Positions 1 through 56,512 of a stretch of DNA of 64,000 bases are shown one piece after another. Below the pieces are notes generated by a model, which was not told the origin of the DNA, searched no databases, and saw only the letters and a list, made by a program, of their open reading frames with translations. The translations under genes and the position numbers were made by a program. Each line of letters starts with the position of its first letter. Within the stretch, counting starts at the first letter, position 1. Location of the stretch: positions 142,106,001-142,170,000 of the forward strand of contig CM059431.1 in the NCBI GenBank assembly GCA_030390025.1, in the 5' to 3' direction. This DNA is from Squalus acanthias (Eukaryota).

Positions 1-672
1 CGTCTCATTTACATTTGACCGATTTGTAGTTCTCTGCTGCCAGAAGTTTAAGACAAAATATTGCACCAAGAGAACTGCGGCCGCGGCTATAACAACGTTT
101 TCGGTCCTGACCTTATTTAAAGACATCCCCGTATTGTTTGGATTTGAACATCAGCAAATAATTAACAAGGTGCAGTGGGGCTGCCGTCCAAGTGTGGCTT
201 TTTCTTCCTCACCTCCAGGTGTTGCCTACCTCTGGTTTCACAGCGCCTGGGTTGTTTGGCTTCCTTTCAGTTTAATTGTCTTGTTTAATTCTTTAACAGT
301 CCGTCGTATATTAGTGGCCAGCAGAGCCCGCAGGGAACTCCGGGGTCACAGGACTGAGAATCAGTGTGATCCGGAGATGCAGAACCGAAGGAAATCTATC
401 ATTTGACTCTTCACTATATCGGGCAGTTTTATATTGTTGTGGCTGACAAATGCCGTGAGTTTGTTAACTACCAGACTGGGAAACACCATTATTACCGAGG
501 CGACCGCACAGACCCTGGATATATCGCCACAGAAACCGGAGCCATGCTGAAGTTTTTGAATGGCTTTCAAAACCTGTATATTTATGCAGCGACCCAGAGG
601 AAATTCAGAGAAGAGCTGAAGACTGTGGTGAAATATCCCTGGACAATCACTCTGAGATTGGTTAGAAAATGA
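1..672 (+). pseudogene. GPR139/GPR142-like class A GPCR, copy 1 (3' part of exon 2; 5' end lies outside the window); pseudogene
   Basis: The frame from base 2 reads VSFTFDRFVVLCCQKFKTKYCTKRTAAA...WGCRP...LFNSLTVRRILVASRARRELRG...RRKSII, collinear with copies 2 and 3. In-frame TGA at 404-406 where the paralogs have TTA (Leu). A 1-nt deletion near 487-489 shifts the frame, and the TM7/H8 segment (YRGD..YIATETG..YIYAATQRKFREELK) is in ORF 403..672. Confidence 0.88.
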
Positions 673-1734
673 GATTTAAAGTAATCAAGTCAAACAAAAG
701 CTCCCTCGTAACTAAAGCTCAATTTCAACTCCTTTTCCACCGTAGAACGTCCTTCTTTCTGGAAATGTGAAAAATGGGAGAGTTCATGTGTGAACATTTA
801 TTCGATTTTTAGCATGCGTTTGATGTCTGCTTTACTTTAGCTTTTCTCGCTTCTTTCGCTGAGTAAACATAACCTATTCCGGCAAATTTAGCACATTTCA
901 ATTTCAGGGATCAAACAGAACAATGATGAGGTGCAGCAGTGGAGTCGGACATGTGTGTAACAGAGGAATCCACCTCACACTGCAGATACTTGGATCGGGC
1001 GCGCCACTTTAAAATCATCAATAAAGTTTCATTGGGTGCCGAAAACTATCAAAGGTCCTGCGATCGCCGATATTGGTTAATTTCCTGGAAGTTTGGTGTG
1101 AATATTGCAGGCGCGAGTCTCTCTATCGGACTCCATTCCTCATTGACAAACGGAGCCGGCTCTTGTCACGTGATCAGTGTTCCAATGGAGGAAACAGTCG
1201 GAACCCGGCTCAGAGATGTGACCTTTCACCTCTTTTGTCCCAGATACTGATTTAAAATCTCGATTGCGCGCTGACTGGTGTCTCTCACTCATAACTGAGG
1301 TGGAGTCTGCTCTTGTTTTGTGCTGTCGATAGAAGTATCATCAGTAATATTATTGAAATTCTGTCTCAATCAGTCTCCCAAACAAAATAGTAAAGGAATG
1401 TAAACATGAACGATTATTTATAAAATTATTAACTATTACTTTTCATGCAATTTATCTGTAAAAAAAAAGCTGCTAGAAATTCAGCTGAAATAAAACTGAT
1501 ATTAATTATTCTGTGTTTGGCTGAACATATGCGGACGGTCAGAAAGAATCTTTGGTAATTACCGTCTTAATATGCGGTTACAATTTGTCCCAAATAATCA
1601 TTAAAATTCCAGCAACTTTGAATCACTTGCAAATTGTTCATCCCTGATCTCACCAATCTGCGAGGAAACGACAAGGAATGGAAGAATTTCTCAATTGAAA
1701 AACCTGAAGGATGTGGATGGAGAGTGAGCGATAG

Positions 1735-2400
1735 GGATCCAAAAATTAATTCATCGAAAGTGTGTTTTCAGGAGGATAAATCCATGCAAACAAAGAGAGA
1801 AATTTGTGTTTATATATATGGGCGTAGACCACAAGAATAAACAAGTGATGATGAATCTTTACAAATTGCTGGTGAGGCTACCATTAGAACAGCAGGTACA
1901 GCTTCACCCCCTCGTTGTGGAAAGACCATTAAATCCACTGAGTGCGGGCAGTGTAGATACACCAGGATGGTGCCATGGATCAGAACTATACTGATGATGA
2001 GGGACAAGATATTGGGACTATTTGCACTGGACGACCGAAAGATAAGAGAAGATTTAATAGAGGTTTGAAAAATTCGGAACAGTTTCGGCACAGTGAAGAG
2101 GGAGAGATTATTTCATCTAGTTGGGGAACGAGAAATTAAACCTGATCAACTTTAAATGGCCACAAGAGAATGAGCAGAGAGGTTAGCAGATATTCCTTTA
2201 TGCAAAGACTTGTTTCAGCTGGAATGTTTTGCCTCAGGGAATAGTTAAGGGAGAGTTAATTTAATATTGAAGCAGATAAAATAAGTGGCTGTGGAGAGAG
2301 AAGTAGACAGTGCGGATAGTTTTTGACTGTTGTATCAAAGGACCCTGTACAGATAGAATGGGTCACATGACCTACTCCCACACAGTAAGTCTCTATGTTT
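1735..2400 (+). mobile_element. Highly degraded CR1 LINE 3' fragment
   Basis: Remnant peptide (VMMNLYKLLVRLPLE) matches the C-terminus of CR1 ORF2 in younger copies; boundaries approximate. Confidence 0.6.
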
Positions 2401-3403
2401 TTATTGTGTACCCTGTGTTGCTATCATTTTCATTGTTTTTGTTTCTAAGATACTTTCGTCGCTGTTGAGATTCTATTAAACAAAGCATTAAAATAAAACA
2501 ACTACCAAGGAATCTCCCCGAGGTTCAATAGTCACCCGTCCCTTACAGGTTCGTATTTGTCGATAACCGACTTTCATTCTGTAATTAGCTGTCTGGGCAG
2601 TGCCAGATCTCCCACCCACCCCATAATTCCTCACCGTTTGTAGATGTGGAACCTTGCCCGCTGCTTTGTTAAAATCCGACTGGGACATTCGAACTGCATT
2701 TCCCCTGCCCTACAGGCCAGTGATGTGTTTCAGAAACTCCAGCAGGTTAGTTAAAGATGACACATCGTCCCTCAAACCAATATAATTCCCTTCTACATTG
2801 CTGCTCTCCCAGGTTATCACCCACTGGACCTCTCCTGGCCTTATTTTAAACACTGGAATTATTTCAGCCACTGTCGGATCCTCAGGAATCTTCTCTAATT
2901 GAGGAAATTTGTAACAGTGTCAGTATACCGTCACTCCTGTCAGTCCCCATTCCTTTATCTCGCGGTGTCTGGGTCCCTGGATTCCAGAATCCCATGTTAT
3001 GTGGTTGAACATTGTAACTGTATTTAAAAAAAACTATTGATCGCTGCCTATTATACAAGCTTTCAATGATTCACTTGTGTTCTACTCCGAATATTTACCC
3101 AGCAGGCCTTTGCTAGTCCTTACTGTCTACCTGGTGGATTCGTTGGATAATGTAAAAGCTTTTTCTTAATCCTTAATATTGCTCCCGATTAATGACGTGG
3201 ACCCTCGATGAGGGTCCATTCACTTTTAAATGGAATAATACCTCTTAATCCACACCCACTAGCTCCTTCTTAACTACTTTCCACTTGTCTAATCCACCTT
3301 TCGGATCTCCTGGACCTGCACCACTGCCGGAGTCTCGCACGCACACGGGTGGATTATTGGAAAATTATCGAAGCGCCTGCTCAGCTTTCATTCCATTGCC
3401 ATT

Positions 3404-5585: not shown

Positions 5586-5979
5586 ACTTGTTATCAATGA
5601 TTTAAGAACTTGAAATTCTGAATCTCATGCTCCACTACAGTTTCTAGCTAAATAGCCTTTAGAAAATACTCCGAGTTATCTTTCTTGGTTTATTGTGGAT
5701 GTTTCACACTTGCCGACATTTAGCACCATTTGATATAGTTTTGCTAACTCATTTAATCTTTCTATGTCTCTTTTTAACTTCTCGATCTTATTGGCACAAC
5801 TTACGCTTCAACCGAACTTAGTGTCATTTACAAACTTGAATACATGGCGGTCTATTGTTTCATCGAAGTCATTAATACATATGGTGAAAATGTCAGGCCC
5901 TTGTACAGAAACCTGGGAGTGAGCACTTTTCACAAAGGAATGTTGGAATCGGATCTATACCAGAATTTTAGTGTATGGA

Positions 5980-8582
5980 CATCACCATTAATGCTAGAGA
6001 GGAGCGTCACCAGTAATGCTAAATTACGGTTGACACAAGTACATTAGATAAGGTGCAGCACCAATGATGTTAGAGTAAGCTCACCAAGAGTAATGTTATA
6101 GTATGTTCACCACCAGTAATGTTAGCGAAGGATCAGCACCAGTAATGTTAGAGTAGGATCATCAAGATTAACGTTAATGTAGCGCTGGTACCATTAGCGC
6201 TTCAGTAGCGTCAATAGCAGCAAAATTACAGTAGATTCATCATCACTAATGTAAGAGCGGAGTCACCACCAGTAATGTTAGAGTAAATTCACCACCAGTA
6301 ATGTTAGAGTAGGTTCATCACCAGTAATGTCAGAGTAGGGTCACCACCAGTTATGTTGGGTCAACATCAGCAATTTTACTGCAGGGTCATCAGCAGTAAT
6401 GTTAGAGTAGAGTCGTCAATAGTAACGTTAGAATAGAGGCAACACCACTCACGTTAGAGTCGGGTCACCACCATTAATGTTAGAGTAGGGTCACCACCAG
6501 TAATGTTACTGTAGGGTCACCACCAGTAATATTAGAGTAGGGTCACCATCAGTAATGTTGGAGTAGGGTCACCACCAGTAATGTTAGAGTAGGGTCACCA
6601 CCAAAAATGTTGGAGTAGGGTCACCACCAGTAATGTTAGAGCAGGATCACCATCAGTAATGTTAGAGTAGGGTCACCATCAGTAATGTTAGAGTAGGGTC
6701 ACCACCAGTAATGTTAGAGTAGGGTCACCACCAGTAATGTTAGAGCAGGGTCACCATCAGTAATGTTAGAGTAGGGTCATCACCAGTAATGTTAGACTCG
6801 GGTCACCACAAGTAATGTTATTGTAGGGTTACCACCAGTAATGTTGGAGTAGGGTCACCGCCAGTAATGTTAGAGTAGAGTCACCACCAGTAATGTTAGA
6901 GTAGAGTCACCACCAGTAATGTTAGAGTAGGGTCACCACCAGCAATGTTAGACTAGGGTCACCACCAGTAATGTTAGAGTAGAGTCAAAAACAGTAATGT
7001 TGGTGTAGTGTCACCACCAGTTGTGTTAGAGTAGGGTCACCACAAGTAAGGTTAGAGTAGAGTCACCACCAGTAATGTTAGAGTAGGGTCAAAAACAGTA
7101 ATGTTAGAGTAGGGTCACCACCAGTAATGTTAGAGTACAGTCACCACCAGTAATGTTAGAGTAGCGTCACCACCAGTAAGGTTAGAGTAGGGTCACCACC
7201 AGTAAGGTTAGAGTAGCGTCACCTCCAGTAATGTTAGAGTAGAGTCACCACCACTAATGTTAGGGTAGCGTCACCACCAGTAATGTTAGAGTAGAGTCAC
7301 CACCAGTAATGCTGGATTAGAATCACCAGCAGTAATGTTAGAGTAGCGTCACCACCAGTAATGTTAGACTAGAGTCACCACCAGTAATGTTAGAGTAGAG
7401 TCCCCACCAGTAATGTTAGCGTAGAGTCACCACCAGTAATGTTAGAACAGAGTCACCACCAGTAATGTTAAAGTTGGGTCACCACTGGTAATGTTACAGT
7501 AGGGTGAACACCATAATGTTAGCGTAGGACTACAGTCAGTAAAGTCAGAGTAGAGTCACCAGCAGTAACATTAGAGTAGCGTCACCACCAGCAATGTTAG
7601 AGTAGGATCACCAGCAGCAAAGTTAGAATAGTATTCTGAGCAGTAATGTCAGAGCAGGATCGCCACCAGTAATATTAGAGAAGAGACAACACTAGTAATG
7701 TTATAGTAGAGTCACCACCATCAATTTTAGTGTAGTTTCATCAATAGTAATGTTAGAGTGGAGTCGCCACTAGTAATTTCAGAAGAGGATCAACACCAGT
7801 AATGTAAATGTACAGTCACCACTTTATTCATGTTAGAGTAGGGTCATCACCATAGAGTAGAGTCACCACCAGTAATGTCAGAGAAGCGTCACCACCAGGT
7901 ATGTTGCAGTAGAGTCACCACCAGTAATGTTAGAGAAGCGTCACCACCAGGTATGTTACAGTAGAGTCACCACCAGTAAGGTTAGATTACGTACGCAACA
8001 GGTAATGTTAGAGTAGGTTCACCACCAGTAATGTTAGAGTAGAATCACCACCAGTAATGTTAGAGTAGGGTCAGCACCAGTAATGTTAGACTAGAGTCAC
8101 CACCAATAATGTTAGAGTAGGTTCACCACCAGTAATGCTAGAATGTGGTCAACACCAGTAATCTCAGAGTTGGTCACCACCAGCAATGTTAGAGTAGGAT
8201 CACCAGCAGTAATGTTAGATTGGTGTCAGCAGCAGTAATGAGAGCGCAGGAACACCACCAGTAATAATAGAGAGGAGACAACACCAGCAATGTTAGAATA
8301 GTGTCACCAGCAGTAATGACAGATCAGGAACACCACCAGTAATAATAGAGAGGAGACAACACCAGCAATGTTGGAATAGTGTCACCAGCAGTAATGACAG
8401 AGCAGGAACACCACCAGTAATAATAGAGAGGAGACAACACCAGTAATGTTGGAATAGTGTCACCAGCAGTAATGTCAGATCAGGATCACCACCGGTAATA
8501 TTAGAGAAGAGACAACATCAGAAATGTTAGAGTTGAGTCACCAGCAGTAATGTTAGAGTAGAGTCATTAGCTATAATGTTAT
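5980..8582. repeat. 26-bp satellite array, segment 1 (consensus CACCACCAGTAATGTTAGAGTAGGGT)
   Basis: Period 26 (e.g. TCACCACCAG at 6491 and 6517); homogeneous core about 6470-7480, degenerate edges. Confidence 0.95.
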
Positions 8583-10570
8583 GATAGCAAAATACTGCGG
8601 ATGCTGGATATCTGAAATAACAACAGAAAACGCTGGAAAAACTCAGCAGGCCAGGCAGCATCCGTGGAGAGAGAAAGAGAGTTAACGTTTCAGGTTGATG
8701 ACCTTTCGTCAGAACTGTGAAGAGCCGGAAATCAAATAGATTTAAGGCCAGAGTAAAGCTGGGAAAAGGGGGAGGGGATAAAAGAACAAAGGGGGAGATG
8801 AAGAGACATTAAGAGACATTAAGAGATATGCAAGGCTAGAGGTGGTGTTAATGTGACAGATTAAGGCTGAAAGAAGTGTGAAATCCACTGGCAGAATGAA
8901 GGACAGCTGCCAGCTTCTAGGAGGAAATAAAAGGTGGGGGGGGGGCAAATAAAAGGGTGGAAAAAATAAAATATAAACGTGATTGGAGCTGAGGTTATGA
9001 TCTAAAATTGTTGAACTCAATATTGAGTCCAGAGGGCTGTAGCGTGCCTAAACGAAAGATGAGGTGCTGTTCCTCGAGCTTACGCTGCGCTTCCGTGGAA
9101 CAGTGTAATAGGCCGAGGACGGTGAGGTCAGAGTGGGAGTGAAGCGGTGAATTAAAGTGACAGGCCACCGGGAGCTCGGGGTCCCCCTTACGGACTGAAC
9201 GGAGGTGTTCCGCAAAGCGGTCACCCAATCTGCGTTTGGTCTCCCCAATGTAGAGGAGACCACATCGTGAGCAGCGAATACAGTATACTAAATTGCAGGA
9301 AGTACAAGTAAATCGCTGTTTCACCTGGAAGGGGTGTTTGGGGCCCTGGACAGTGGGAAGAGGGGAGGTGTAAGGGCATGTGTTGCATCTCCTGCGCGTG
9401 CACGGGAAGGTGCCGGGCGAAGGGGAAGGGGTGCTGGGGGTGGTAGAGGAGTGGACTAGGGTGTCGCGGAGGGAGCGGTCCCTGCAGAATGCTGAAAGGG
9501 GAGGTGAGGGGAAGATGTGTTTGGTGGTGGGATCACGCTGGAGGTGGCGGAAATGGCGGAGGATGATCCGTTGAATGTGGAGGCTGGTGGGGTGAAAGGT
9601 GAGGACAAGGGGAACCCTATCGTGGTTCCGGGAGGGAGGGGCAGGGGTGAGGGCAGAAGTGCGGGAGATAGAACGGACACGGTCGAGGGCCGTGTCGACC
9701 ACGGTAGAGGGGAATCTTCGGTTGAGGAAAAAGGAAGACATGTCGGAAGCACTGGTATGGAAGGTGGCATCATCAGAGCAGATGCGGCGGAGACGGAGAA
9801 ACTGGGAGAATGGAATAGAGTCCTTACAGGAGGCGGGGTGGGAGGAAGTGTAGTCCAGGTAGCTGTGGGAGTCAGTGGGCTTGTAGTGAATGTTAGTCAA
9901 TAACCTATCCCCAGAGATGGAGATGGAGAAGTCGAGGAAGGGAAGGGAAGAGTCGGAGATGGACCATGTGAAGGTGAGGGAAGGGTGGAAATTGGAAGCA
10001 TAGTGAATGAAATGTTCTAGTTCAGGGCGAGAGCAGGAGACGGCACCGATACAGTCATCAATGTACCGGAAAAAGAGGTGAGGGAGGGGTCCCGAGTAGG
10101 ACTGGAACAAAGAGTGTTCCACATATCCCACGAAAAGGCAGACATAGCTAGGACCCATGCGGGTACCCATAGCAACACCTTTAATTTGGAGGAAATGGGT
10201 AGAGTCAAAGGAGAAGTTGTTCAATGTGAGAACAAGTTCAGCCAGGCGGAGGAGTGTGGTGGTGGATGGGGACTGGTTGGGCCTCTGTTCAAGGAAGAAG
10301 CGGAGCGCCCTCAGGCCATCCTGGTGGGGAATGGAGGTGGAGAGGGATTGTACGTCCATAGTGAAGAGGAGACGGTTGGGGCCGGGAAACTGGAAACTGT
10401 TAAAATGGCGGAGGGCATCGGAAGAGTCGCGGATGTAGGTGGGAAGAGACTGGACAAGGGGAGAAAAAATAGAGTCGAGATAGGAAGAGATAAGTTCCGT
10501 GGGGCAAGAACAGGCTGAAACGATGGGTCTACCAGGGCAGTCCTGTTTGTGGATCTTGGGAAGGAGGTAG
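8583..10570 (-). mobile_element. Penelope-like retroelement family A (Neptune-like), 5'-truncated; RT plus GIY-YIG open for 454 aa (8995..10359)
   Basis: RT motifs MDVQSL, QIKGVAMGTRMGP, FRYIDD; CxxxxCxxC linker; GIY-YIG VYCIRC..YIGET..EH; 8-bp TSD AATGTTAT (8575-8582 and 10571-10578). Confidence 0.93.
8680..8716 (-). ncRNA. Minimal type I hammerhead ribozyme (Penelope family A)
   Basis: Minus strand AGUU-CUGACGA-A-AGGU-CAUCA-ACCU-GAAA-CG-UU-AACU. Confidence 0.7.
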
Positions 10571-10904
10571 AATGTTATATTTGGTACACCACGAATAATG
10601 TTAGAGTTGGGTCATCCCCAGTAATGTCCGAGTAGGATCACGACCAGTAATGATAGAATAGTGTCATTTCCAGCAATTTTAGAGTAGGTTCATCAACAGT
10701 AATGTTAGTGTATATTCGCCACCATTACGTTTAGCAAAGTGTCTACACCAGTAATGTTAGAATAGGGTTACCACCAGTAATGTTAGAGTACAGTCACCAC
10801 CAGTTATGTTAGAGTAGAGTCACCACCAATAATGCTAGGCTAGGGTCACCATCAATAATGTTAGAGTAGAATCAGCACCAGTAATGTTAGAATAGGGTCA
10901 CAAT
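10571..10904. repeat. 26-bp satellite array, segment 2
   Basis: Same unit, lying between the two Penelope insertions. Confidence 0.9.
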
Positions 10905-13900
10905 GAATCTGCCAAGACTCGGTTTCACAGCCACATTACTTTCCTCAGTAACTGTCTCCGGTTCCGACTTATCCCACGTGGATTCCAACTAAACTTCCAC
11001 CCTTCGTGTTTCGGATCAACCCAGGATTACAAATATCTCCAAGATATTCATCGTTCCTCGAACTACTGCTCTCGCTGCATCTTGAGATCCATGCTCAACG
11101 CCATGCGGCGCCACATGACACTCTCGACATCTCTCTTCAGCAGCACCGACGCACTCTATCTCAAAGCTGTCCGGGTCCACAGTTCCATTTCATCCTTAGA
11201 CTCATCCGACGCTTCAACAAAAAACTTTTCAGCTTCCTTTCCGATGTCAAGGATCGCAAGCTTCAACAACTCTTGGACACTAACGCCCCTCCGGAACCTT
11301 CTTCCCCTTCACTTTCCTCTGACCCCCCTTCTCCCAATCTCACCCCCTGCCGCGTTTTCACTATCCCCTCTGACCTTCCCCTATCTGACTCCAAACGATC
11401 AGTCCTCAGCAAAGGCCTGAGCTTCATCGCCTTACGCCCCCATCTCAGTGAATTTCGAGCTCGGCACGATATTGAGCTCTTTTTCCGCCGCCTCCGTCTC
11501 CGTGCCCACTTCTCTGGCCAGGAGTCTTCCCCCCGCATGGCTGACGCTTTCTCCCCCCTTCAGAATTCTCGTTCCACCTGGACCCCTCCCTCTGGCCTCT
11601 TACCCTCTCTAGATCTTTTCATTGCTAACTGCCGCCGTGACATCGGCCAGCTCAATTTCTCTGCTCCCCTCACTCACTCCAACCTACCTCACTCTGAACT
11701 TGCAGCACTCCATTCTCTCAGATCCAACCTCGACATTGTCATTAAACCTGCTGACAAGGGTGGTGCTGTTCTTGTTTGGCGAACCGACCTCTACCTACCG
11801 GAAGTTGAACGCCAACTGTCCGACACCTCCTCCTACCTCCACCTGGACCATGACCCCACTACAGAACATCATGCCACCGTGTCCAAGACTGTCACTGACC
11901 TCATCTCCTCTGGAGATCTTCCCCCCACGGCCGCCAACCTCATAGTTCCCCAACCCCGCACAGCCCGCTTCTACCTCCTTCCCAAGATCACAAACAGGAC
12001 TACCCTGGTAGACCCATCGTTTCAGCCTGCTCTTGCCCCACGGAACTTATCTCTTCCTATCTCGATTCTATTTTTTCTCCCCTTGTCCAGTCCCTTCCCA
12101 CCTACATCCGCGATTCCTCTGACGCCCTCCGCCACTTTAACAGTTTCCAGTTTCCTGGCCCCAACCGCCTCCTCTTCACCATGGACGTACAATCCCTCTA
12201 AACCTCCATCCCCCACCAGGATGGCCTGAGGGCGCTCCGCTTCTTCCTTGAACAGAGGCCCAACCAGTCCCCATCCAGCGCCAGCCTCCTCTGCCTGGCT
12301 GAACTTGTTCTCACCTTGAACAACTTCTCCTTTGACTACACTAATTTCCTCCAAATCAAAGGTGTTGCTATGGGTACCCGCATGGGTCCTAGCTATGCCT
12401 GCCTTTTCGTGGGATATGTGGAACACTCTTTGTTCCAGTCCTACTCGGGTCTCCTCCCTCACCTCTTTTTCCGGTACATTGACGACTGTATCAGTGCCGT
12501 ATCCTGCTCCCGCCCCGACTAGACAATTTGATTCACTTTGCCTCCAATTTCCACCCTTCCCTCACCTTCACATGGTCCATCTCCGACTCTTCCCTCCCCT
12601 TCCTCGACTTCTCCGTCTCCATCTCTGGGGATAGGTTATTGACCAACATTCACTACAAGCCCACTGACTCCCACAGCTACCTGGACTACACTTCCTCCCA
12701 CCCCGCCTCCTGTAAGGACTCTATTCCCTTCTCCCAGTTTCTCCGTCTCCGCCGGATCTGCTCCGACGATGCACCTTCCATACCAGTGCTTCCGACATGT
12801 CTTCCTTTTTCCTCAACCGAGGATTCCCCTCTACCGTGGTCGACACGTCCCTCGACCGTGTCCGTTCCATCTCCCGAACTTCTGCCCTCACCCCGGCCCC
12901 TCCCTCCCGGAACCACGATAGAGTTCCCCTTGTCCTCACCTTTCACCCCACCAGCCTTCACATTCAACGGATCATCCTCCACCATTTCCGCCACCTCCAA
13001 CGTGATCCCACCACCAAACGTATCTTCCCCTCACCTCCCCTTTCAGCATTCCGTTGGGACCGCTCCCTCCGAGACACCCTAGTCCACTCCTCTATCACCC
13101 CCAGCAGCCCTTCCACTTCACCCGGCACCTTCCCGTGCAAGCGCAGGAGATGCAACACCTGCCCTTATACATCCCCCCTTCCCACTCTCCAGGGCCCCAA
13201 ACACCCCTTCCAGGTGAAACAGCGATTTACTTGTACTTCTTGCAATCTAGTATACTGTATTTGCTGCTCACGATGTGGTCTCCTCTACATTGGGGAGACC
13301 AAACGCAGATTGGGTGACCGCTTTGTGGAACACCTCCGTTCAGTCCGTAAGGGTGACCCCGAGCTTCTGGTCGCTTGTCATTTTAATTCACCCCTCCACG
13401 CTCACTCAGACCTCACCGTCCTCGGCCTCTTACATTGTACCACGGAAGCGCAGCGTAAGCTCCAGGAACAGCACCTCATCTTCCGTTTAGGCACTTTACA
13501 GCCTTCCGGTCTCAATATCGAGTTCAACAATTTCAGATCATAACCCCGGCCCCTACCACATATGTATACATTTTATCCACTCTTTTGGTCCGTGCCTTTT
13601 TCCTTTTTTTTCTCTCTCTCCCCCCACGGCAGCTGTCTCTGATTCTGCCAGCATTTCACACCTTACCTTTTGTTTCTCAACCTGTCCCATTACCATCTCG
13701 TCTTGCCTTGAGCATCTCTCAATGTCTCTACTTACTAAAGACCATCCCTTTTGTTCTTTTATTCCTCCCCCCAGCCTCCCCCTTGCATTTGTATCTGTTT
13801 ATTTCCTGCTCTTTCAGATCCGACGAAGGGTTTCGACCTGAAACGTTAGCTCTCTTTCTCTCTCCACGGATGTTGTCTGGCCTGCTGAGTTTTTCCAGCG

Positions 13901-13917
13901 TTTTCTGTTGTTATTTC
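10905..13917 (+). mobile_element. Penelope-like retroelement family A, near full-length ORF with frameshifts and stops
   Basis: VLSKGLSF, IKPADKGGAV, RFYLLPKI, RT and GIY-YIG motifs across ORFs 11006..13543; 8-bp TSD GTCACAAT (10897-10904 and 13918-13925). Confidence 0.93.
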
Positions 13918-14470
13918 GTCACAATAAATAATGTTAGGGCATGTTCACAACCAGTAACGTTACAGTTGATTCATCAAAAATAAGGTTAGATTAGCGTCCC
14001 CACCAGTAACGTTAGAGTAGGATGCCACAGCAGTAATGTTAGAGTAGAGTCCCCAGCAGTAATGTCAGAGCAGGAACACCACCAGTAATGTAAGAGTAGA
14101 GTAAACACCAGTACTGTTAGTGTAGAGTCAACACTAGTAAAGTTATATTAGGTGCAACACGAATAATGTTAGAGTTGGGTCATTACCAGTAATGTCGGAG
14201 TAATATCACCACCAGTAATGTTAGAGTACGGTCACCAGCAGTAATGTTAGAGTCGGGTATCCACCACTAATGTGTGAATAGATTCAAAACCATTAATGTT
14301 AGTGTACAGTCACCACTTTATTAATGATAGGTTAGAGTAGCTTCGCTACCAATAATGTTAGAGTGAGTCACCACCAGTAACGTTAGATTTGATTCACCAC
14401 CATGTATGTTAGAATATTGTCATTACTCTTAATGTTAGTGTAGGATCTTCGCCGGTAACGTTACAGCCGA
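13918..14470. repeat. 26-bp satellite array, segment 3 (degenerate), ending about 350 bp upstream of the TATA box of copy 2
   Basis: CACCAGTAATGTTAGAGTA units. Confidence 0.88.
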
Positions 14471-14618: not shown

Positions 14619-14676
14619 GCACATTCCTTCTGGGATTACTTTCCGTTCATTGATTTTAATGGACGGAATTTCATGG
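14619..14676. promoter_or_regulatory. Conserved palindromic upstream block of copy 2
   Basis: 56/58 identical to 54525..54582; contains the inverted repeat TTCCGTTCATT...AATGGACGGAA. Confidence 0.5.
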
Positions 14677-14808
14677 ACTGAGCTGTTCAATTTCCCCAGT
14701 GGCGGCCCGGGCGCCCCGAAGGGGAAAATCGCCTGTTGTTTGTTAAGTTACTGTAACTAACGCAAATTATAGGGTAACCTGATTTTCTCACCGGGGCAGC
14801 GATTGTTC

Positions 14809-14814
14809 TATAAA
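14809..14814 (+). promoter_or_regulatory. TATA box of GPCR copy 2
   Basis: TATAAA about 80 nt upstream of the ATG, positionally conserved with copy 3. Confidence 0.6.
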
Positions 14815-14892
14815 GATGGATGAATTTCTGGATTTCAGTTAAACTCCCGTCGGTGCCGTTATGCTGCACAGAATTCGCAGATTCTTCCAAAA

Positions 14893-16681
14893 ATGGAACT
14901 GCCAACAATGGTACAGATAAACAACATTTACTATCCTATTCTCGCAGCCTTTGCGGTTCCCGGTAAGTCAATGCATCCTGTTACCTAATAGCTGTTGACT
15001 ATCTCAGTGTTAATGTAACAAATTCCGAGCATGTCCTCATTTGCTGAGTCATTTATTCAACGGGATCATTTGCTGAATATCAGTGGGAATCGTATCAGTC
15101 CGCGCGTCCACTGAGGCGCTGTTCTGGTCGGTAGACCAGAGCTCAATCTTCCTCCCTGTACTGAGGGAGGGCGAGGATGATTCACCGGCCCCTCCAATAG
15201 TACATAGATCATTAAAGAATGTGTTGCTCAGTGTCCATGGTAATCCTTTCATCTGTACCGTTGTACCCTGTCTAGATTAATTTGATAATTCCTTGTACTG
15301 CAGCCACCTCCACCCATCAGAGGACTGTGAATGATATTTGGAGCAATAATTGCCGCTCAGGGAGCTGCTCCCCTCCCCTCGGCTGTAAAGAACCTTCGCA
15401 GGCTCCTCCATCTCCCGCTCTGTTACCGAGCAGCTCCCTCGGGGCCATTAGAAATAGAAAAAGCGCAGAGTTTCGACCTACATCGGATGTTTGTGTCTCA
15501 GCTGAATGTATTATTTGAATTCATATCTTTCCAGTCATTGTTTGTAAATTATATTTAATACGTGACGATGTCTGACTGCTGGAAACAGCCGACATTCAGC
15601 CCCTCTATCGCCAGGGTTCTATGTTTTATCTCTTTTAAACAAATTGTCCAACGATCCGCTATTTTATAAAGAAATAATCAGTGTCGATTACCCTATGTAG
15701 GGACACTTCAGAACATATCCCCACAATGTGCTGTTAGATTTATCCGAGTGTCCCCGTTACAGACCTCTTCTCCCTCTTTCTCACAGCGAACCTACTGACA
15801 ATCGTGATTCTCTCCAGAGGAAACTGCGGACCTTCCAAATGTATTTCTGTCTACATGGTGGCCATGGCAACAGCAGATCTACTGGTCATTGTCTTACATG
15901 TAATAGCGTATCAAACTTTCAGTTATCACTTTCCACATTCATTCCTGAACTACACTGCGGTTTGTAAGTTAATTCTGTGTATGAATCCTGCTACCCTGGA
16001 TATGTCGGTGTGGTTTACCGTCTCCTTCACATTTGATCGATTTGTAGCCATATGTTGTCAGAACTTTAAAACAAAGTATTGCACTGTGAGAACTGCGGCC
16101 GCGGTTATAACAACGGTCTCCGTCCTGATCTGTTTAGAGAACATCCCCTTTTGGTTTGCATATGAAACTGAGCGAATAATTCACAACGTTCCCTGGGGTT
16201 GCCGCTATAGTGTGACCTTTTTTATTTCGCTTGCAGGTGTAGCATACTGCTGGATAAAAAGTATTTTACTTCCATGGCTTCCTTTTGCATTGATATTACT
16301 GTTTAATTGTTTGACAGTCCGGCGCATTTTGGTGTCCAGTAGAGCACGCACGGCACTCCTGGGTCACAGCAGTGAGAATCAGAGCGATCCCGAGATGGAG
16401 AAACGAAGGAAATCCATCATTTTACTGTTCATTGTATCGGCCAGTCTTATTGTGATGTGGCTGACAGTTTTTTAACTACCAAACTGACAAACACGGCACA
16501 TTATCGAGGCGATTATACATCCCCTGCATACATTGCCACTGAAACCGGATATATGCTCATGTATTTGAGTTCCTGTACAAACACATGTATTTATACAGCT
16601 ACACAAACTAAATTCAGGGAAGAGATAAAGAACGTGGTGAAATCTCCTTGGACATTCATTCTGAATTTAGTTAAAAAATGA
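14893..16681 (+). pseudogene. GPR139/GPR142-like GPCR, copy 2; exon 1 14893..14962, intron 14963..15786, exon 2 15787..16681; frameshifted in TM6
   Basis: Exon 1 MELPTMVQINNIYYPILAAFAVP ends at G|GTAAGT and joins in phase 1 to ctttctcacAG|CG AAC, giving ANLLTIVILSRGNCG..YMVAMATADLL..FDRF. A 10-nt deletion after 16466 relative to copies 1 and 3 (TGG CTG ACA|GT TTT TTA ACT ACC) gives TAA at 16473-16475. TM7/H8 survive out of frame to the ancestral TGA at 16679-16681. Confidence 0.88.
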
Positions 16682-18559
16682 AAAATTGAAGCAAACCTTC
16701 CTGACCGAACTGGAGCTCAATTCTACTACGATGAAAATGGATTGTTCTGTTTAAATAAATGTAAAAATAAACCAGCATTCCTGTTCAAACTAGAGTTAAA
16801 TTACAGCCCCTGTTCCCTTTTAGAACGGCCGTCTTTCTGTTATGACGGAAATGGAATGTTGTTGTGAGAATGTACAGGTATCAGAAAATATTTCCTCCAC
16901 TTTGTGCCGTGTGTTTGATGTCTGCTGCTTTCCCCGGGTGAACATAATCGATTCCCATAAAACAGTGCCCTTCACGCTCAAGATTCAAAGAGAACGGTCA
17001 AGACTGAGCTTCAGCAGTGGAGTAGCACATGTGGGTGTCAGCGTGAACTGCCTCACACCGCAGGTACTGGAATGAGTCGCCCCAGTTTAATTAATAGCTA
17101 ACGTTTTCTTTAGTGTAGAAACAATGTGTTATAATGGAGGTTATCTGCAATACTGTAATCTCGGTGTGAATGTTGCAGGCGCTGGTCTCCCCATCAGACT
17201 CCTCCCCCCATTGTCTCCTGGACCAATAGAACGGGGCCCTGTCTCCTGACCAGTTTCTGATGATGAGACAGTAGGAACTTGACTCGTCAATGTGACATTA
17301 GACAGCTTTCTTCACAGATATTTACTGAAAATCTCAACTGGTCATCACAATGTTGGAACCAACCAGTCCTTGTCGGCGTTTACACTCCACCCGACTCAAC
17401 ATCCCTTCTACCACTTTTTGTTCATTCATCTATCCAATTTGATATTGAATATTTACATAATTCCTGCCTCCGTGAAATCCACAGTCTCAGAACTCTCTGT
17501 GTAACGAGTTTTATCCAGCACTCACTTAAATATCTCTGACATTTCTTTTATCGATGGTCGTTAGTTTTTGATCTCTCAGCTAATGGAATCCGTCTGCTTC
17601 TATCTTTTTAACTTAAATCCCCTGGGCACCACTCGCCAAAATATACTAGTCTGTTGTCAATGCACAATCTAGTGAAATTGAGGAAAATTTACTTAAGATA
17701 GTTAATTGATAACTTTCTCTCGGAGATTGTTGTGACCTTGCTTGTACTGAACAATGAGAAGAATGTATTTGATAGCTTGGTCACTCACTACACGAAAAAT
17801 TGTGACCATTCAGGGGGAGATTCTAAAGAAGCAACTCCAGATCGCCGATCGTTTGATGGATCTTGTACTGGATGATGTGTGTGGAGAAGTGACGTATTGT
17901 AGGTGAAGCAACCAGCATGTGATATGTATGATGAAATGCCCCAGAGCACGGGTCCATGACATGGTCAGTTACGCTGACATCACCACTACATGAAATGGTT
18001 AATGTGGCTCCAGAGCATGCGAACATGTGTAACAATAATAGGTAGAGATCTGCGCCATAGAATAGGTCGAGATAGAAATATGATGCTGTTAGGATGTTAT
18101 TTTGTGATGGCCTTAAATACTCTAACGCCAATAGAGGGGGTTCTATGAAGTAAGGGTCAGTCAGACTGTCCTGAATCTGCTAACGTTATATTGCATTGGT
18201 TCAAAATGCCAAACCCCTCATGGTTTCATTTCCCGTGGAGCCCGCGCTCTGCCAATCCGGTTGGCATCCAGCTTCAGAATGAAGTGGTGTTGAATTGCGG
18301 GCTGTTCTGTGTAATAGGCACATTCTCATTTAACTGGATTCAGACGGCCAACAGTATTTAAGTCACGAGTCAGGCAGCAGGCAGGGATTTTAATACTATC
18401 AGTCAGCGATGCATCTGCACCCAGTTACAATCGTGAGAAGGCGATGTGTAATCAACCTCATCATCTAATATCAACATGTAAAATAGAGAGCATAGAATGA
18501 ACAGGTTAACCATTACATTACCGTGTCAAATTCAGTCCCATATGGTTGGGATTCTCCTG

Positions 18560-19110
18560 CCCCCTGTTCCTAATTCAACAGTGTCCGTGTTCCCTTAATT
18601 TCTCTATTACTCAGTACAGTCGCTGTGTTTTCCGGACATTCCCGTGACGTAATTTTGTTATTCAACAGTTGCTGTCTTCCCTGTCACCTACTTGGACATA
18701 CATTGCTGGTACGGTCCACGGACCCCAGTTTCTAATTACACAGTTGCTGTGTTCCCCTAAATTCCCATCTTCTCTATTTCTAATTAAGCAGTTATTGTGC
18801 TCCCCTAAATTCCCATCTTCTCTGTTTCTAATTTAATAGTTACTGTGTTCCTGTAAAGTTACCTTTACTTTATTCTAATTAAATTATTGCTGCATTCCTC
18901 AAAATGACCTTGTTCTCTATTTTTAATTAAACATTTACTGTGCTTCCCTATAGTCCCCGTTATTCTACTAATAAGTAAGCAATTGTTGTATTCCCCTTAA
19001 GTCTCCTTTCTTCTATTTTAATTAAAGAGTTGTTGCATTCCCCTAATTTTACCTGTCCTGTAATTTAATTAAACACTTACTGTATTGCCGTTAATTCCAC
19101 TATTACCCAT
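18560..19110. repeat. Degenerate 48-bp minisatellite (short paralog of 60430..62900)
   Basis: CTAATTACACAGTTGCTGTGTTCCCCTAAATT-like units; flanks match those of the large array. Confidence 0.75.
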
Positions 19111-42520: not shown

Positions 42521-42542
42521 CTTAAGAACATAAGAACATATT

Positions 42543-48795: not shown

Positions 48796-48879
48796 AACCT
48801 GGAATTTTTAACTCCCGATCATGACCAGAATAAAGCATGTCCCAGTAATGGCCAACATGTCGTACCCTCTAAGCTGTAT

Positions 48880-53430: not shown

Positions 53431-53432
53431 TT

Positions 53433-53590
53433 TGGGCCAGAAATTCGGCTCTTGTCGTGTGAGTACGCGCTGTGTACTCACCCGTAAGGCCACCTGAAGT
53501 GCCGGTTTCAGCCATGCACTGCGCATGCGCGGGAAACCGGAACTTCCGTTCCCCTGAAGGAAGGAATTCAGAGGTGGAACACGTGCGCAG
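53433..53590 (-). mobile_element. Truncated MITE end (family of 57896..58641) abutting the satellite
   Basis: GGGCCAGAAATTCGGCTC TIR followed by the AAGTGCCGGTTTC..TGCGCATGCGC..GAAACCGG hairpin. Confidence 0.75.
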
Positions 53591-53593
53591 GTT

Positions 53594-54380
53594 CACCACC
53601 AGTAATGTTAGATTAGGTTCACCCCAATAATGAAGCAGTAGGATCACTACCAGCAATGGTAGCCTAGATTCATGGCATGTACTGTGAGTGTAGGATCAAC
53701 TTCAGTAGTGTTAGCGTAGGGTCATCACCTGTAAGGTTATCTAGGATCAACAACATGAATGTCAGCTTCGTGTCATCAGCAGTAATGATAGAGTAGGGTC
53801 ACCACCAGTAATGGTAATGCAGAGTCACCACCAGTAATGTTAGAGTAGGGTCACCACCAGTAATGTTAGAGTAGAGTCACCAGCAGTAATGTTAGAGTAG
53901 GTTCACCACCAGTAGTGTTAGAGTGGGGTCACCACCAGTAATGGTAATGCAGAGTCACCACCAGTAATGTTAAAGTAGGGCCACCACCAGTAATGTTAGA
54001 GTAGCGTCACAGAATCACAGGATCACAGAATCACAGAATCCCCACAGTGCAGATAGAGGCCATTTCGGCCCATCGAGCCTGCACCGACACATATCCCACC
54101 CTATCCCCATAACCCCACGTATTTAATCCCCCCTAACACTAAGGGTCAATTTATCATAGCCAAATCAACCAAACCCACACAGCTTTGGACTGTGGGAGGA
54201 AACCGGAGCACCCGGAGGAAACCCACGCAGACACGGTGAGAATGTGCAAACTCCACACAGACAGTCACCAGGGGCCGGATTCGAACCCTGGCTCTGTGAG
54301 GCAACAGTGCTAACCACTATGCCACCGTGTCACCATCAGTAATTTAAGATTAGAATCATCGTCAGTCATGTTAAGCCGAT
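53594..54380. repeat. 26-bp satellite, short array upstream of copy 3, interrupted by a SINE
   Basis: Same consensus as 5980..14470. Confidence 0.9.
54011..54328 (-). mobile_element. tRNA-derived SINE, HE1/V-SINE type, with a CR1-derived tail
   Basis: Minus strand A box TGGCATAGTGG and B box GGTTCGAATCC; V-domain-like GTGTGGAGTTTGCACATTCTC..GTGGGTTTCCTCCGGGTGCTCCGGTTTCCTCCCACA; (ATTCTGTG)n tail; flanking GTCAC repeat. Confidence 0.88.
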
Positions 54381-54524: not shown

Positions 54525-54582
54525 GCACATTCCCTCTGGGATTACTTTCCGTTCATTGTTTTTAATGGACGGAATTTCATGG
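54525..54582. promoter_or_regulatory. Conserved palindromic upstream block of copy 3
   Basis: 56/58 identical to 14619..14676, visibly more conserved than the neighbouring intron. Confidence 0.5.
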
Positions 54583-54714
54583 CCTAAATTGTACAATTTC
54601 CCCAGTGGCGGCCGGGGCGCACTGAAGGGGATAATCGCCCCTTGTTTGTTAAGTGACTGTAACTAACGCCAATTATTGTGTAACATGATTTTCTCACAGG
54701 GGCAGCGGCGGTCC

Positions 54715-54720
54715 TATAAA
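54715..54720 (+). promoter_or_regulatory. TATA box of GPCR copy 3
   Basis: CCTATAAAGGG about 80 nt upstream of the ATG, positionally conserved with copy 2. Confidence 0.65.
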
Positions 54721-54799
54721 GGGAGAGCATTTACGGATCTCCGATTGCCTCTAGTCGGAACCGTAAAGCCGCTCAATCTTCACACAAATCTGCAAAACA

Positions 54800-54869
54800 A
54801 TGGCACGGCCAGCAATTCTACAGATAAGGGACATTTACTATCATTTTCTCGGAGCCTTTGGCGTTCCCG
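54800..54869 (+). CDS. GPR139/GPR142-like GPCR, copy 3, coding exon 1 (MARPAILQIRDIYYHFLGAFGVP + 1 nt)
   Basis: ATG 80 nt after TATAAA. The 70-nt exon ends at CCCG|GTAAGT, with the same length and phase as exon 1 of copy 2. Too short for the ORF track. Confidence 0.88.
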
Positions 54870-55619
54870 GTAAGTCAATGTATCCTGTTGCCTAATAGCT
54901 GTTGACTAACTGAGTGTTAATGCAACATCTTCTGAGAATGTCCTTATTGCAGATTCATTCATCCACCGGGATCAGTCGCTGAATATCAGCGAGAATCCTT
55001 CCAGACCGCGCGGGCGCTGTTCTGGTGGGCAGATCCTTTGTACCGGACGCTCAACATTCCTCCCTATACTGAGGGAGGGCGAGGCTAATTCCCCGGCCTC
55101 TCCAACCGTGCATAGATCACTAAAGAACGTGTTGCTCAGTGTCTATAATATTCACCTCATTTGTGCCGTTGTTCCCTGTCTATATTAATGAGATAATTCC
55201 TCAGACTGCAGTCACCTCCACCCAACAGGGGACTTTGAAAGATATTTTGAGAAATAATTTCCACTGAAGAAGATGCTCCACTCCCCTCGGCGGAATTTGG
55301 ACATAGATTGAACGTTTCTGTCTCAGCTGAATGTTTCATTTGAATTATATCTTTCCATTAATTGCCGTGAAATAATATTTAATATTTGACAAAGACTTAG
55401 TGACGTATGCTGCAAGGATGAACGTTTTTCAGTCCCTCTATATTGAATGTCCAATGAATAATTTATGTTAAACAAAATACATTAACCCTCGCCTATATTC
55501 ATGATAACATTCAGTGTCTATGACCCTAAGTAGGGACACATCTGAACATTTCCCCACAATATGCTGTGAGATTTAACTGAGTGACCCTGTTACTGACCTC
55601 TTGTCCCTATTTCTCACAG

Positions 55620-56512
55620 CGAACCTACTGACAATCGTGATTCTCTCCAGAGGAAACTGCGGCCTTTCCAAATGTATCTCTGTCTACATGGTGGCCATGG
55701 CAACAGCAGATCTCCTGGTCATGATCATCAATATATTAGTGAATCGCATTTTACGTTATCACTTTCCACATACATTCCTGTCCTACACTGTCGTTTGTAA
55801 GATCATTATATACCTGCAATGTGTCGCCCTGTATTTGTCGGTGTGGTTTACAGTCTCGTTCACATTTGACCGATTTGTAGCTATATGTTGTGAGAAGTTT
55901 AAAACCAAGTATTGCACAGTGAGAACTGCGGCCGCGGTTATAACAACGGTCTCTGTCCTGATCTGTTTACAGAGCCTCCTCTTTTGGTTTGCATTTCAAC
56001 CTGAGCGAATAATTAACAATGTTCACTGGGGTTGCCGACCCAGAGTGGAGTTTTCTTCATCGCCTGTAGGTGTGGCGTTTTCCTGGTTACGTAGCATTTG
56101 TTTTTCTTGGCTTAGTTATGTTTTGATATTACTGTTTAATTGTTTGACAGCCAGACGTATTTTAGTGGCCAGTAGAGCCCGCAGGGGACTCCGGGGTCAC
56201 AGCAGTGAGAATCAGAGCGATCCAGAGATAGGGAACCGAAGGAAATCCATTGTTTTACTTTTCAGTGTATCGGCCAGTTTTATACTGTTGTGGCTGACAA
56301 CTACCGTTACTTATTTAACTACCGGACCGACAAACACCGCGCATTACCGAGGCGATTATGCAGCCCCTGCCTATATTGCCGCTGAAACCGGATATATGCT
56401 CATGTATTTGAGCTCCTGTACAAACACGTGTATTTATGCAGCTACACAAACTAAATTCAGGGAAGAGCTGAAGCAGGTGATGAAAATTCCTTGGACATTT
56501 ATTTGCAAATAA
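55620..56512 (+). CDS. GPR139/GPR142-like GPCR, copy 3, coding exon 2; spliced product 320 aa, intact 7TM
   Basis: Acceptor tatttctcacAG at 55618-55619. Uninterrupted ORF with TM1 GVPANLL, TM2 AMATADLL, TM3 C...FDRF, ECL2 WGC, TM6 FILLWL, TM7 SSCTNTCIY, H8 KFREEL. Motifs resemble GPR139 (GLPANIL, LALAAADIL, SVWITV..DR), recalled from memory; orthology not established. Confidence 0.9.

What the first reader, a model, noticed from the sequence alone, without database searches (positions are those of the whole stretch)
1..56512. Tandem birth-and-death cluster of GPR139/142-like receptors: candidate undescribed chemosensory or immune receptor repertoire
Seen: three same-strand paralogs in 57 kb, one intact and two independently broken. 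The two with a visible 5' end share a compact gene (70-nt exon 1, 750-824 bp phase-1 intron in TM1, one large exon) and a very short N-terminus with no N-glycosylation sequon. Known: mammalian GPR139 and GPR142 are single-copy, conserved sensors of aromatic amino acids (Trp/Phe), and cartilaginous fishes have few canonical odorant receptors. Inference: tandem clustering, pseudogenes and pocket hypervariability are what OR, TAAR, V1R, FPR and MRGPR repertoires show, so this may be a lineage-specific sensor family derived from an amino-acid or peptide receptor.
Basis: partly seen in the sequence, partly recalled or inferred. Interest (0 to 1): 0.82.

Follow-up and report, generated by a model that had tools for sequence, protein, structure and literature searches.

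The report
Giant hidden shark receptor gene family
These three genes belong to a family of about 3,000 related receptor genes in this shark-type genome, about half of them apparently intact, which looks like a large undescribed set of chemical sensors in animals thought to have only a few dozen, although where the genes are active is not yet known.

Summary
Observation confirmed: one intact 320-aa class A GPCR gene and two broken paralogs. Three independent motifs give 2,860, 2,184 and 3,080 loci in this 3.7-Gb assembly (controls 0, 0, 6). Exon 2 was intact in 32 of 60 sampled loci, suggesting roughly 1,100-1,900 intact genes. They are not GPR139 or GPR142: both exist here as separate genes, and a joint clade is rejected (AU p 0.0007). 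The family is the expanded counterpart of an unnamed gene seen once per amphibian species (100/100), within an unnamed chordate clade that is sister to GPR139/142 and shares their intron. Pocket sites evolve fast in the family and slowly in the single-copy relatives. Genes are under purifying selection overall; no partition showed significant omega above 1. Expression and ligands are untested, so chemosensory versus immune function stays open. Ten literature searches found no description. The scan noted this family before in a ray and in this genome.

The parts
1..672 (+). Copy 1, 3' part of exon 2; pseudogene (TGA at 404-406, 1-nt deletion near 487; 5' end and a 39-nt in-frame deletion lie outside the window)
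849..1261 (+). Conserved block downstream of copy 1, about 65% alike to the blocks behind copies 2 and 3 (candidate 3' UTR or regulatory element)
5959..14413 (+). 26-bp satellite upstream of copy 2, in three pieces (5959-8566, 10587-10901, 13945-14413) separated by two retroelement-like insertions
14620..14820 (+). Copy 2 conserved upstream block with TATAAA at 14809 (start approximate, from alignment to copy 3)
14893..14962 (+). Copy 2 exon 1 (70 nt)
14963..15786 (+). Copy 2 phase-1 intron, 824 bp, just before the N1.50 codon
15787..16681 (+). Copy 2 exon 2; 10-nt deletion near 16469 shifts the frame in TM6; pseudogene
16851..17709 (+). Conserved block downstream of copy 2
18729..19094 (+). 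48-bp satellite downstream of copy 2, homologous to the array behind copy 3
53589..54010 (+). 26-bp satellite upstream of copy 3
54526..54725 (+). Copy 3 conserved promoter-like block with TATAAA at 54715; 13% different from copy 2 against 21% in the intron (Fisher p 0.011; block borders chosen by eye)
54800..54869 (+). Copy 3 exon 1 (70 nt)
54870..55619 (+). Copy 3 phase-1 intron, 750 bp; same position as the acceptors seen in this genome's GPR139, GPR142 and lineage B and C genes
55620..56512 (+). Copy 3 exon 2; with exon 1 gives an intact 320-aa class A GPCR
56580..57040 (+). Conserved block downstream of copy 3; 11.5% different from copy 2 against 21% in the intron (p 3e-5; borders chosen by eye)
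60551..62751 (+). 48-bp satellite downstream of copy 3, part of the duplicated cassette

Best explanation
The window is a 57-kb piece of a multi-megabase cluster (C7, about 137-153 Mb) of a chondrichthyan receptor family, here called X, with about 3,100 loci in this assembly. SHOWN: (1) X descends from one gene of an unnamed chordate clade that is sister to GPR139/GPR142; amphibians and sturgeon keep that gene (lineage A), apparently as a single copy with a near-invariant pocket. (2) In cartilaginous fishes it multiplied as a satellite-flanked cassette of 10 kb or more, and copies keep being born and lost. (3) The G-protein-facing half is conserved while the ligand pocket has been rewritten between subfamilies and kept within at least one. 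INFERRED: many receptors with different pockets feed one shared G-protein pathway, which is a combinatorial chemical-detection system. The ancestral ligand was probably an amino acid or short peptide, since relatives keep the aromatic 3.33, basic 6.51 and, in lineage A, W6.48 and N7.39 pattern of GPR139. My committed reading is an outward-facing chemosensory repertoire (olfactory or other epithelial chemosensory cells) for amino-acid, peptide or other water-soluble cues. That it is a functional, ligand-diversified repertoire: about 0.85. That it serves external chemosensation: about 0.5.
For: Size: 2,860, 2,184 and 3,080 motif hits, reversed controls 0, 0, 6. All 60 loci sampled from the TM3 list matched the family profile. 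The motifs miss this genome's GPR139, GPR142, B and C genes by 4-10 mismatches. Birth and death: exon 2 intact in 32 of 60 (95% interval 40-66%); species-specific clades of 8-10 paralogs. Tree: X+A 100/100, chordate clade without GPR139/142 97/90; AU test p 0.00067 against X+GPR139/142. Pocket: relative rate at 29 pocket sites 1.59 in X, 0.28 in A, 0.61 in B, against 1.21/1.11/1.19 at 74 other outer-half TM sites (Mann-Whitney p 6e-7 and 4e-5). Copy 3 vs copy 2: dN 0.41 in the pocket, 0.06 inside the cell, dS 0.22. Selection: whole-gene omega 0.50, 0.66, 0.58 in three sets from this genome; intracellular omega 0.19-0.51, all significantly below 1. Conserved TATA block and 3' block. Cartilaginous fishes have only 20-62 complete olfactory receptor genes despite many sensory neurons (PMC10869828, passages).
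Against: No expression or ligand evidence was obtained. No partition had omega significantly above 1: pocket omega was 0.35 (below 1, p 0.002) in copy 3's clade, 1.09 in a C1 cluster and 0.77 in a mixed set, so relaxed constraint fits the outer half as well as positive selection does. The excess of pocket dN over dS for copies 3 and 2 is marginal (p 0.04) and copy 2 is a pseudogene. Catshark olfactory neurons are reported to be nearly all TRPC2+/Go+ with V2Rs expressed robustly (PMC10116579, passages), so the nose may need no further family. Catshark OR-like genes are expressed mainly outside the nose (PMC11979771 section 13), so receptor class does not predict tissue in sharks. By eye the promoter has only imperfect O/E-like sites (consensus recalled). 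The intact fraction comes from a non-random sample, 22 of 60 from one C1 cluster, and tests exon 2 only.
Confidence: 0.5

Rival explanations
1. Immune or mucosal surveillance repertoire: the receptors sit on leukocytes or tuft-like epithelial cells and read microbial or parasite peptides and metabolites, as FPRs and MRGPRs do in mammals (comparison recalled).
For: The same evolutionary signature. A peptide-receptor ancestry (PMC8514136 passages). Catshark or1 and or4 are spleen-specific. Earlier unchecked scan notes report large NLR/CARD arrays 13-16 Mb further along the same chromosome.
Against: No expression data. No hit for GPR139-type names in the one supplementary file (4,750 characters) held for a nurse shark spleen study, which is nearly uninformative. 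No significant omega above 1, as a pathogen arms race might give.
Confidence: 0.24
2. Largely passive amplification: satellite-flanked cassettes are copied by unequal recombination, a minority of subfamilies do the work, and most copies drift.
For: Each gene sits in a cassette with a 26-bp array upstream and, for copies 2 and 3, a 48-bp array downstream. 28 of 60 sampled loci are broken. Outer-half omega is about 1.1 in the C1 cluster. Tandem clusters are reported to scale with genome size in rays (10.1101/2025.06.08.657570, passages).
Against: Intracellular omega is 0.19-0.51 even in young clusters. The pocket is under purifying selection within copy 3's clade. Intact members persist in sharks, rays and a chimaera. 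Rate acceleration is concentrated at pocket sites.
Confidence: 0.13
3. Somatosensory or reproductive repertoire: MRGPR-like receptors in skin nerve endings, or receptors in sperm, oviducal gland or claspers that read mate or gamete peptides.
For: The nearest characterised invertebrate relatives include the sex peptide/MIP receptors. Some catshark V2R and OR genes are testis-enriched.
Against: No direct evidence. Mammalian MRGPR families are far smaller than this (recalled).
Confidence: 0.1
4. The count is inflated by uncollapsed haplotypes or assembly errors, and the true family is much smaller.
For: By my count about 73 of the 132 best matches to copy 3 lie on higher-numbered contigs (outside C7, C9, C29, C31). 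Some have identical scores.
Against: Only 3 of 30 loci of copy 3's clade have a partner at 99.5% or more over the locus, and 0 of 60 loci on large contigs do. Other species show 26-30 distinct paralogs among just the top 120 hits. An independent run holds 1,611 contigs at 80% or more.
Confidence: 0.03

Closest known systems
GPR139 and GPR142 (Trp/Phe-activated orphan class A GPCRs; PDB 7vug, 9m42)
   Same: Best solved relative by profile (64.7 bits, next 49.7). Same phase-1 intron acceptor two bases before N1.50. W6.48 kept in 97% of X. RefSeq names most X proteins 'probable G-protein coupled receptor 139'.
   Different: Separate genes on C18 and C24 in this genome; they score only 72 and 62 bits on the X profile against 244 for lineage A and 121-135 for protostome receptors. 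X has C3.25 (98%) and an ECL2 cysteine (95%); human GPR139 has D at 3.25. F3x33, R6x51 and N7x38 are scrambled in X, and H5x43 is kept in 36%.
Unnamed lineage A gene of amphibians and sturgeon (e.g. XP_069092602.1, Pleurodeles)
   Same: Sister or co-ortholog of X (100/100); shared ICL3 and TM7-H8 motifs. No separate lineage A gene among 119 scored matches in this genome, best identity 34-37%.
   Different: 20 amphibian clusters, each named from a different species, plus one sturgeon; pocket almost invariant. Function not described in the papers searched.
Unnamed lineages B and C and amphioxus receptors (automatic name 'probable GPR139')
   Same: Same chordate clade (98/95 for A+X+B+C, 97/90 with amphioxus), same intron acceptor, same disulfide cysteines.
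   Different: One clear ortholog each in this genome (C17, C9). B occurs in sharks, bony fish, amphibians and reptiles, with no mammal or bird among the named rows of the top 120 of 145. Both keep R6.51 and Y3.33.
Vertebrate chemoreceptor repertoires OR, TAAR, V1R/ORA, and FPR/MRGPR
   Same: Works like them in genomic behaviour: clusters, about half pseudogenes, compact gene, short N-terminus, variable pocket with a conserved G-protein face. Size is near mammalian OR sets (largest 2,399 complete genes).
   Different: Not a member by sequence: 119 of 119 members match Pfam 7tm_1 and no OR or V1R model is among the 18 families listed at E 0.1. Independent origin from the MIP/GPR139 branch. Expression unknown.
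Protostome MIP/sex peptide, FMRFamide, proctolin and myosuppressin receptors, and nematode Srw/Srx chemoreceptors
   Same: Described as sharing an origin with GPR139/142 (PMC8514136). Sub-threshold Srx matches in 37 of 119 members. Srw-bearing clusters are among the Atlas look-alikes. Nematode Srw as a chemoreceptor expansion from peptide receptors is recalled, not tested.
   Different: Outside the chordate clade (99/95); only three such sequences were in the tree.

Membership tests
GPR139 / GPR142 orthologs | Groups with true GPR139/142 in a tree and is their one-to-one ortholog | tested here: not met
   Separate genes L100 (C18) and L101 (C24); tree; AU p 0.00067; catshark one-to-one GPR139 and GPR142 also listed in PMC13200729 supplement rows
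GPR139 / GPR142 orthologs | R6x51, reported as unique to GPR139/142 among class A and needed for activation (PMC8807744) | tested here: not met
   Copy 3 has T; X has A30 T12 S8 Y8 percent. R is kept in lineages B, C and amphioxus, K in A.
GPR139 / GPR142 orthologs | F3x33, H5x43, W6x48, N7x38 agonist site (PMC5430874 abstract) | tested here: not met
   Copy 3 has C, R, W, Y at these places; only W6.48 is kept across X (97%)
MIP/SPR-GPR139/142 receptor branch of class A GPCRs | Nearest characterised relatives are GPR139/142 and MIP-type receptors | tested here: met
   Profile search of PDB ranks GPR139 first; tree; only three protostome rows, two of them unnamed
MIP/SPR-GPR139/142 receptor branch of class A GPCRs | Phase-1 intron just before N1.50, as in GPR139/142 | tested here: met
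   AG acceptor two bases before the N1.50 codon in L100, L101, L001, L002, L003 and the window copies; donors of L100/L101 not seen
MIP/SPR-GPR139/142 receptor branch of class A GPCRs | Distinguishable fold match to GPR139 | tested here: inconclusive
   7vug Z 24.4, rmsd 2.8, 249 aligned, within 1.0 of the top Z (25.4) and tied with many peptide receptors
OR, TAAR, V1R/ORA gene families (by descent) | Match to their family models or placement among them | tested here: not met
   No OR or V1R Pfam model among the 18 families matched by 119 members at E 0.1; no such genes were put in the tree
Birth-and-death chemoreceptor repertoire (works like) | Hundreds to thousands of clustered paralogs | tested here: met
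Birth-and-death chemoreceptor repertoire (works like) | High pseudogene fraction and lineage-specific blooms | tested here: met
   28 of 60 broken; species-specific clades
Birth-and-death chemoreceptor repertoire (works like) | Pocket variable among paralogs, conserved among orthologs | tested here: met
   pocket sites chosen from a recalled class A list, not from contacts in the model
Birth-and-death chemoreceptor repertoire (works like) | Positive selection at pocket codons | tested here: inconclusive
   Partition omega 0.35, 1.09, 0.77, none significantly above 1; no site model was run
Birth-and-death chemoreceptor repertoire (works like) | Expression in sparse sensory cells, one or few receptors per cell | not testable with these tools
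   No RNA holder on record; contigs give no tissue
Birth-and-death chemoreceptor repertoire (works like) | Distinct ligands for distinct members | not testable with these tools
   needs heterologous assays

The most novel reading that the evidence does not exclude
Cartilaginous fishes have their own main chemoreceptor family, overlooked because databases label it 'probable GPR139': more than a thousand intact class A receptors in this species, born independently of OR, TAAR, V1R and V2R from a peptide/amino-acid receptor, and expressed one or few per cell in the nose or other sensory epithelia. Sharks would then move from the smallest to one of the largest vertebrate chemoreceptor repertoires.
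Probability: 0.4. Interest if true: 0.96.

Novelty: new variant of a known kind. Interest (0 to 1): 0.86.

Why it matters
Sharks have large olfactory organs with many neurons, yet only 20-62 known olfactory receptor genes (PMC10869828). A family of about 3,000 loci with chemoreceptor-like evolution makes that mismatch directly testable: existing shark tissue RNA-seq can be re-counted for these genes at once. If the family proves immune instead, it is still a very large undescribed GPCR repertoire in the oldest lineage with adaptive immunity. The work also exposes an unnamed vertebrate receptor clade (lineages A, B, C) beside GPR139/142. Its single-copy amphibian member offers a tractable route, for example in Xenopus or axolotl, to the ancestral ligand.

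Tried and rejected
Expression: the look-up of sequencing runs listed no RNA holder on record. Laying four runs gave 173, 220, 1,611 and 17 contigs at 80% or more, with no joint across the 750-bp intron among the 15 joints shown (53 not shown); RNA status of X1, X2, X4 is only a guess and no tissue is given. This is no evidence either way. Supplements searched for GPR139-type names: whale shark PMC8455134 (12 of 24 files, none), nurse shark spleen PMC10529500 (1 small file, none), catshark habenula PMC11589584 (one file unreadable, none), cartilage PMC13188829 (none), neural crest PMC13200729 (only the true orthologs). The supplement of PMC11979771, the most relevant tissue panel, could not be read. 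Figures and supplements of the Squalomix preprint, which lists tandem clusters, were not seen and may label this family. Fold search did not single out any receptor. The idea that copy 3 is decaying because it lacks P5.50 and P4.59 was rejected: all 25 clade members printed lack P5.50. The idea of a recent local triplication was rejected. The 60-row careful tree did not finish and gave a quick tree (X one side, SH-aLRT 92). In the 42-row careful tree X alone was not resolved as a clade against A (36% of bootstrap trees; one long branch, P0193); 25 rows were dropped for run time. 76 of 301 proteins with short profile cover were left out of the first tree. A multiple-alignment measure of promoter conservation was distorted by misaligned loci and is not used; the pairwise measure is. 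Exon 1 was found in none of the 60 motif-picked loci within about 1.2 kb of exon 2, so promoters of distant subfamilies could not be compared. One 29-nt promoter motif occurs at only 78 places, so it is subfamily-specific. Only 60 of the 100 listed TM3 hits were sampled for intactness.


Full report
Observation. The three genes are as described. Copy 3 splices a 70-nt exon (54800-54869) over a 750-bp phase-1 intron to exon 2 (55620-56512) and gives 320 residues with seven predicted helices (Pfam 7tm_1 E 1.7e-20; model of exon 2 mean pLDDT 80). Copy 2 has the same plan with an 824-bp intron and a 10-nt deletion in TM6. Copy 1 has a stop at 404-406 and a 1-nt deletion near 487; its 5' end just outside the window has a 1,285-bp intron and a 39-nt in-frame deletion. 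The N-terminus is 24 residues before N1.50 and carries no sequon; copy 3's one sequon is intracellular, and copy 2 has one in ECL1. The lesions were not checked against reads.

Size of the family. The window is G000:C7:142106001-142170000 in a 3.71-Gb assembly. The best 132 scored matches to copy 3 are all 68% identical or more. Three separate DNA motifs, from TM3, TM7-helix 8 and ICL1, match 2,860, 2,184 and 3,080 places, with reversed controls of 0, 0 and 6. The ICL1 motif caught 58 of 60 loci picked by the TM3 motif and 7 of 7 distant members, and none of the motifs caught the four single-copy relatives; about 3,100-3,200 loci is therefore my estimate. Clusters lie on C1, C3, C5, C6, C7, C12, C18, C26, C29, C30 and many small contigs. 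I fetched the first 60 of the 100 listed TM3 hits: 32 of 60 have an open exon 2 covering the profile (interval 40-66%). The sample is not random and exon 1 was not scored. Three of 30 loci in copy 3's clade have a near-identical partner, 0 of 60 on large contigs. Allowing about 10% redundancy gives roughly 1,100-1,900 intact genes. For comparison, cartilaginous fishes are credited with 20-62 complete olfactory receptor genes, and the largest OR set is 2,399 (PMC10869828, passages).

Range. A protein search gave 2,025 hits among 3,033 candidates; the top 120 are all sharks and rays of 16 species, with 30 sawshark, 30 horn shark and 26 sevengill clusters. Two Callorhinchus proteins fall inside the family, so it predates the split of chimaeras and elasmobranchs. 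The window's copies are each nearest a different sawshark paralog (copy 2 with support 97, copy 1 in a separate 51-row subfamily with support 100), while copy 3 has 96-97% twins 1.5 and 4.4 Mb away. Old and recent duplications are thus interleaved. The duplicated unit includes a 26-bp satellite upstream, a TATA block, the gene, a conserved 3' block and a 48-bp satellite, 10 kb or more in all.

What it is related to. GPR139 is the best solved relative (64.7 bits), which explains the database name. But the same profile scores salamander, coelacanth, teleost, amphioxus and even protostome receptors higher (107-220 bits). A motif search found this genome's own GPR139 on C18 and GPR142 on C24. In a 42-row IQ-TREE mixture-model tree, GPR139/142 are sister to a clade of amphioxus receptors plus three vertebrate lineages (97/90); the family joins lineage A at 100/100. 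Forcing the family with GPR139/142 is rejected (AU p 0.00067). Lineage A appears as 20 amphibian clusters from 20 species plus one sturgeon (copy number was not checked in those genomes), and no separate lineage A gene turned up among 119 scored matches here. Lineages B and C each have one clear ortholog here (C17, C9). All share an acceptor two bases before the N1.50 codon. The root rests on three protostome rows, one of them long, and the family alone was not resolved as a clade against lineage A.

The pocket. GPR139 needs F3x33, H5x43, W6x48 and N7x38 (PMC5430874, abstract) and R6x51, which docks the carboxyl group of Trp/Phe (PMC8807744, passages). Lineage A has F3.33, K6.51, W6.48 and N7.39 in 22 of 22 rows; B has R6.51 in 56 of 56 and Y3.33 in 98%. 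In 185 family rows 3.33, 6.51 and 7.39 have no residue above 38%, while D2.50, C3.25, R3.50, W6.48, N7.49 and Y7.53 stay at 96-99%. Site rates, scaled to the TM mean, are 1.59 in the pocket for the family (70 rows sampled from those with few gaps) against 0.28 and 0.61 for A and B; other outer-half TM sites are 1.21, 1.11 and 1.19 (p 6e-7 and 4e-5). The 29 pocket positions come from a recalled class A list. Copies 3 and 2 differ by dN 0.41 in the pocket and 0.06 on the inner side, with dS 0.22 and intron distance 0.23. Codon models on three sets from this genome give whole-gene omega 0.50-0.66 and inner-side omega 0.19-0.51. Pocket omega is 0.35 within copy 3's clade, 1.09 and 0.77 in the others, never significantly above 1. 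So the genes are functional as a class, pockets differ between subfamilies and are held within at least one, and positive selection is not shown.

How it probably works. Shown: origin, size, turnover, conserved signalling face, rewritten pocket. Inferred: many tuned receptors on one G-protein pathway. I put an outward chemosensory role at 0.5, immune or mucosal sensing at 0.24, passive amplification at 0.13, somatosensory or reproductive roles at 0.10 and count inflation at 0.03. Against the nose: catshark olfactory neurons are nearly all TRPC2+/Go+ and V2Rs are well expressed there (PMC10116579, passages), although class A V1R and FPR receptors also use TRPC2 neurons in rodents (recalled). 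Catshark OR genes are mostly expressed elsewhere (PMC11979771 section 13). I obtained no expression evidence.

Novelty. Ten searches of the held library returned no description of this expansion; four papers hold both 'GPR139' and 'shark', none about it by title or abstract (one of them read in passages), and none holds 'GPR139-like'. Term searches in the main text of PMC11979771, PMC10869828, PMC10620051 and PMC12952989 found no GPR139; PMC8455134 was searched for general GPCR terms and describes a paucity of GPCRs in cartilaginous fishes. The Squalomix preprint surveys tandem clusters and names only SUCNR1 among class A GPCRs in the passages seen; its figures and supplements were not seen. 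Subscription journals are mostly outside the library. The proteins themselves are in RefSeq under an automatic name. Earlier scan notes reported the family in a ray (e1-7813824) and the satellite cassette in this genome (e1-7939187); these are not independent support. What I add from my own calls is the genome-wide count, the intact fraction, the separation from true GPR139/142, the single-copy sister lineage and the pocket contrast.

Verdict. Real, large and apparently undescribed; a new, independently derived repertoire of a known kind, with function open. Interest 0.86.

Noticed in passing
window 5959-14413: The 26-bp array upstream of copy 2 is split by two oppositely oriented elements (about 8998-10611 minus, 10952-13540 plus) whose frames look like reverse transcriptase plus GIY-YIG nuclease, i.e. 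Penelope-like; label recalled, not tested against a library.
   Followed up: no
window 18729-19094 and 60551-62751: A 48-bp satellite lies 2-4 kb downstream of copies 2 and 3 and is part of the duplicated cassette; none was reported behind copy 1.
   Followed up: partly
window 849-1261, 16851-17709, 56580-57040: A block downstream of the stop is conserved among all three copies and more than the intron; possible 3' UTR element.
   Followed up: partly
L001 (G000:C17:37413778-37414743): Lineage B: an unnamed receptor kept in sharks, bony fish, amphibians and reptiles, with no mammal or bird among named hits; it keeps R6.51, reported as unique to GPR139/142. Two database models are named TMEM183A isoforms (zebra shark, a tree frog), hinting at conserved synteny.
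   Followed up: partly
L002 (G000:C9:120526265-120527185): Lineage C: a second unnamed single receptor grouping with anchovy and lamprey proteins (100/99).
   Followed up: partly
window 55620-56512; L007-L035: Copy 3's clade has lost the TM5 proline (5.50; 25 of 25 printed) and the TM4 proline (4.59; 24 of 24 shown) that 94% and 89% of the family keep, which may change how this subfamily is activated.
   Followed up: partly
G000:C1:98.88-99.68 Mb (L040-L061): A young same-strand array of at least 22 copies, intact ones 96-99% alike to their nearest neighbour, 13 of 22 intact, with outer-half omega near 1.1 and inner-half 0.19.
   Followed up: partly
window 25093-26652, 29700-37800, 42200-53200: The space between copies 2 and 3 is filled with decayed reverse-transcriptase elements of CR1/LINE type on both strands; label recalled.
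   Followed up: no
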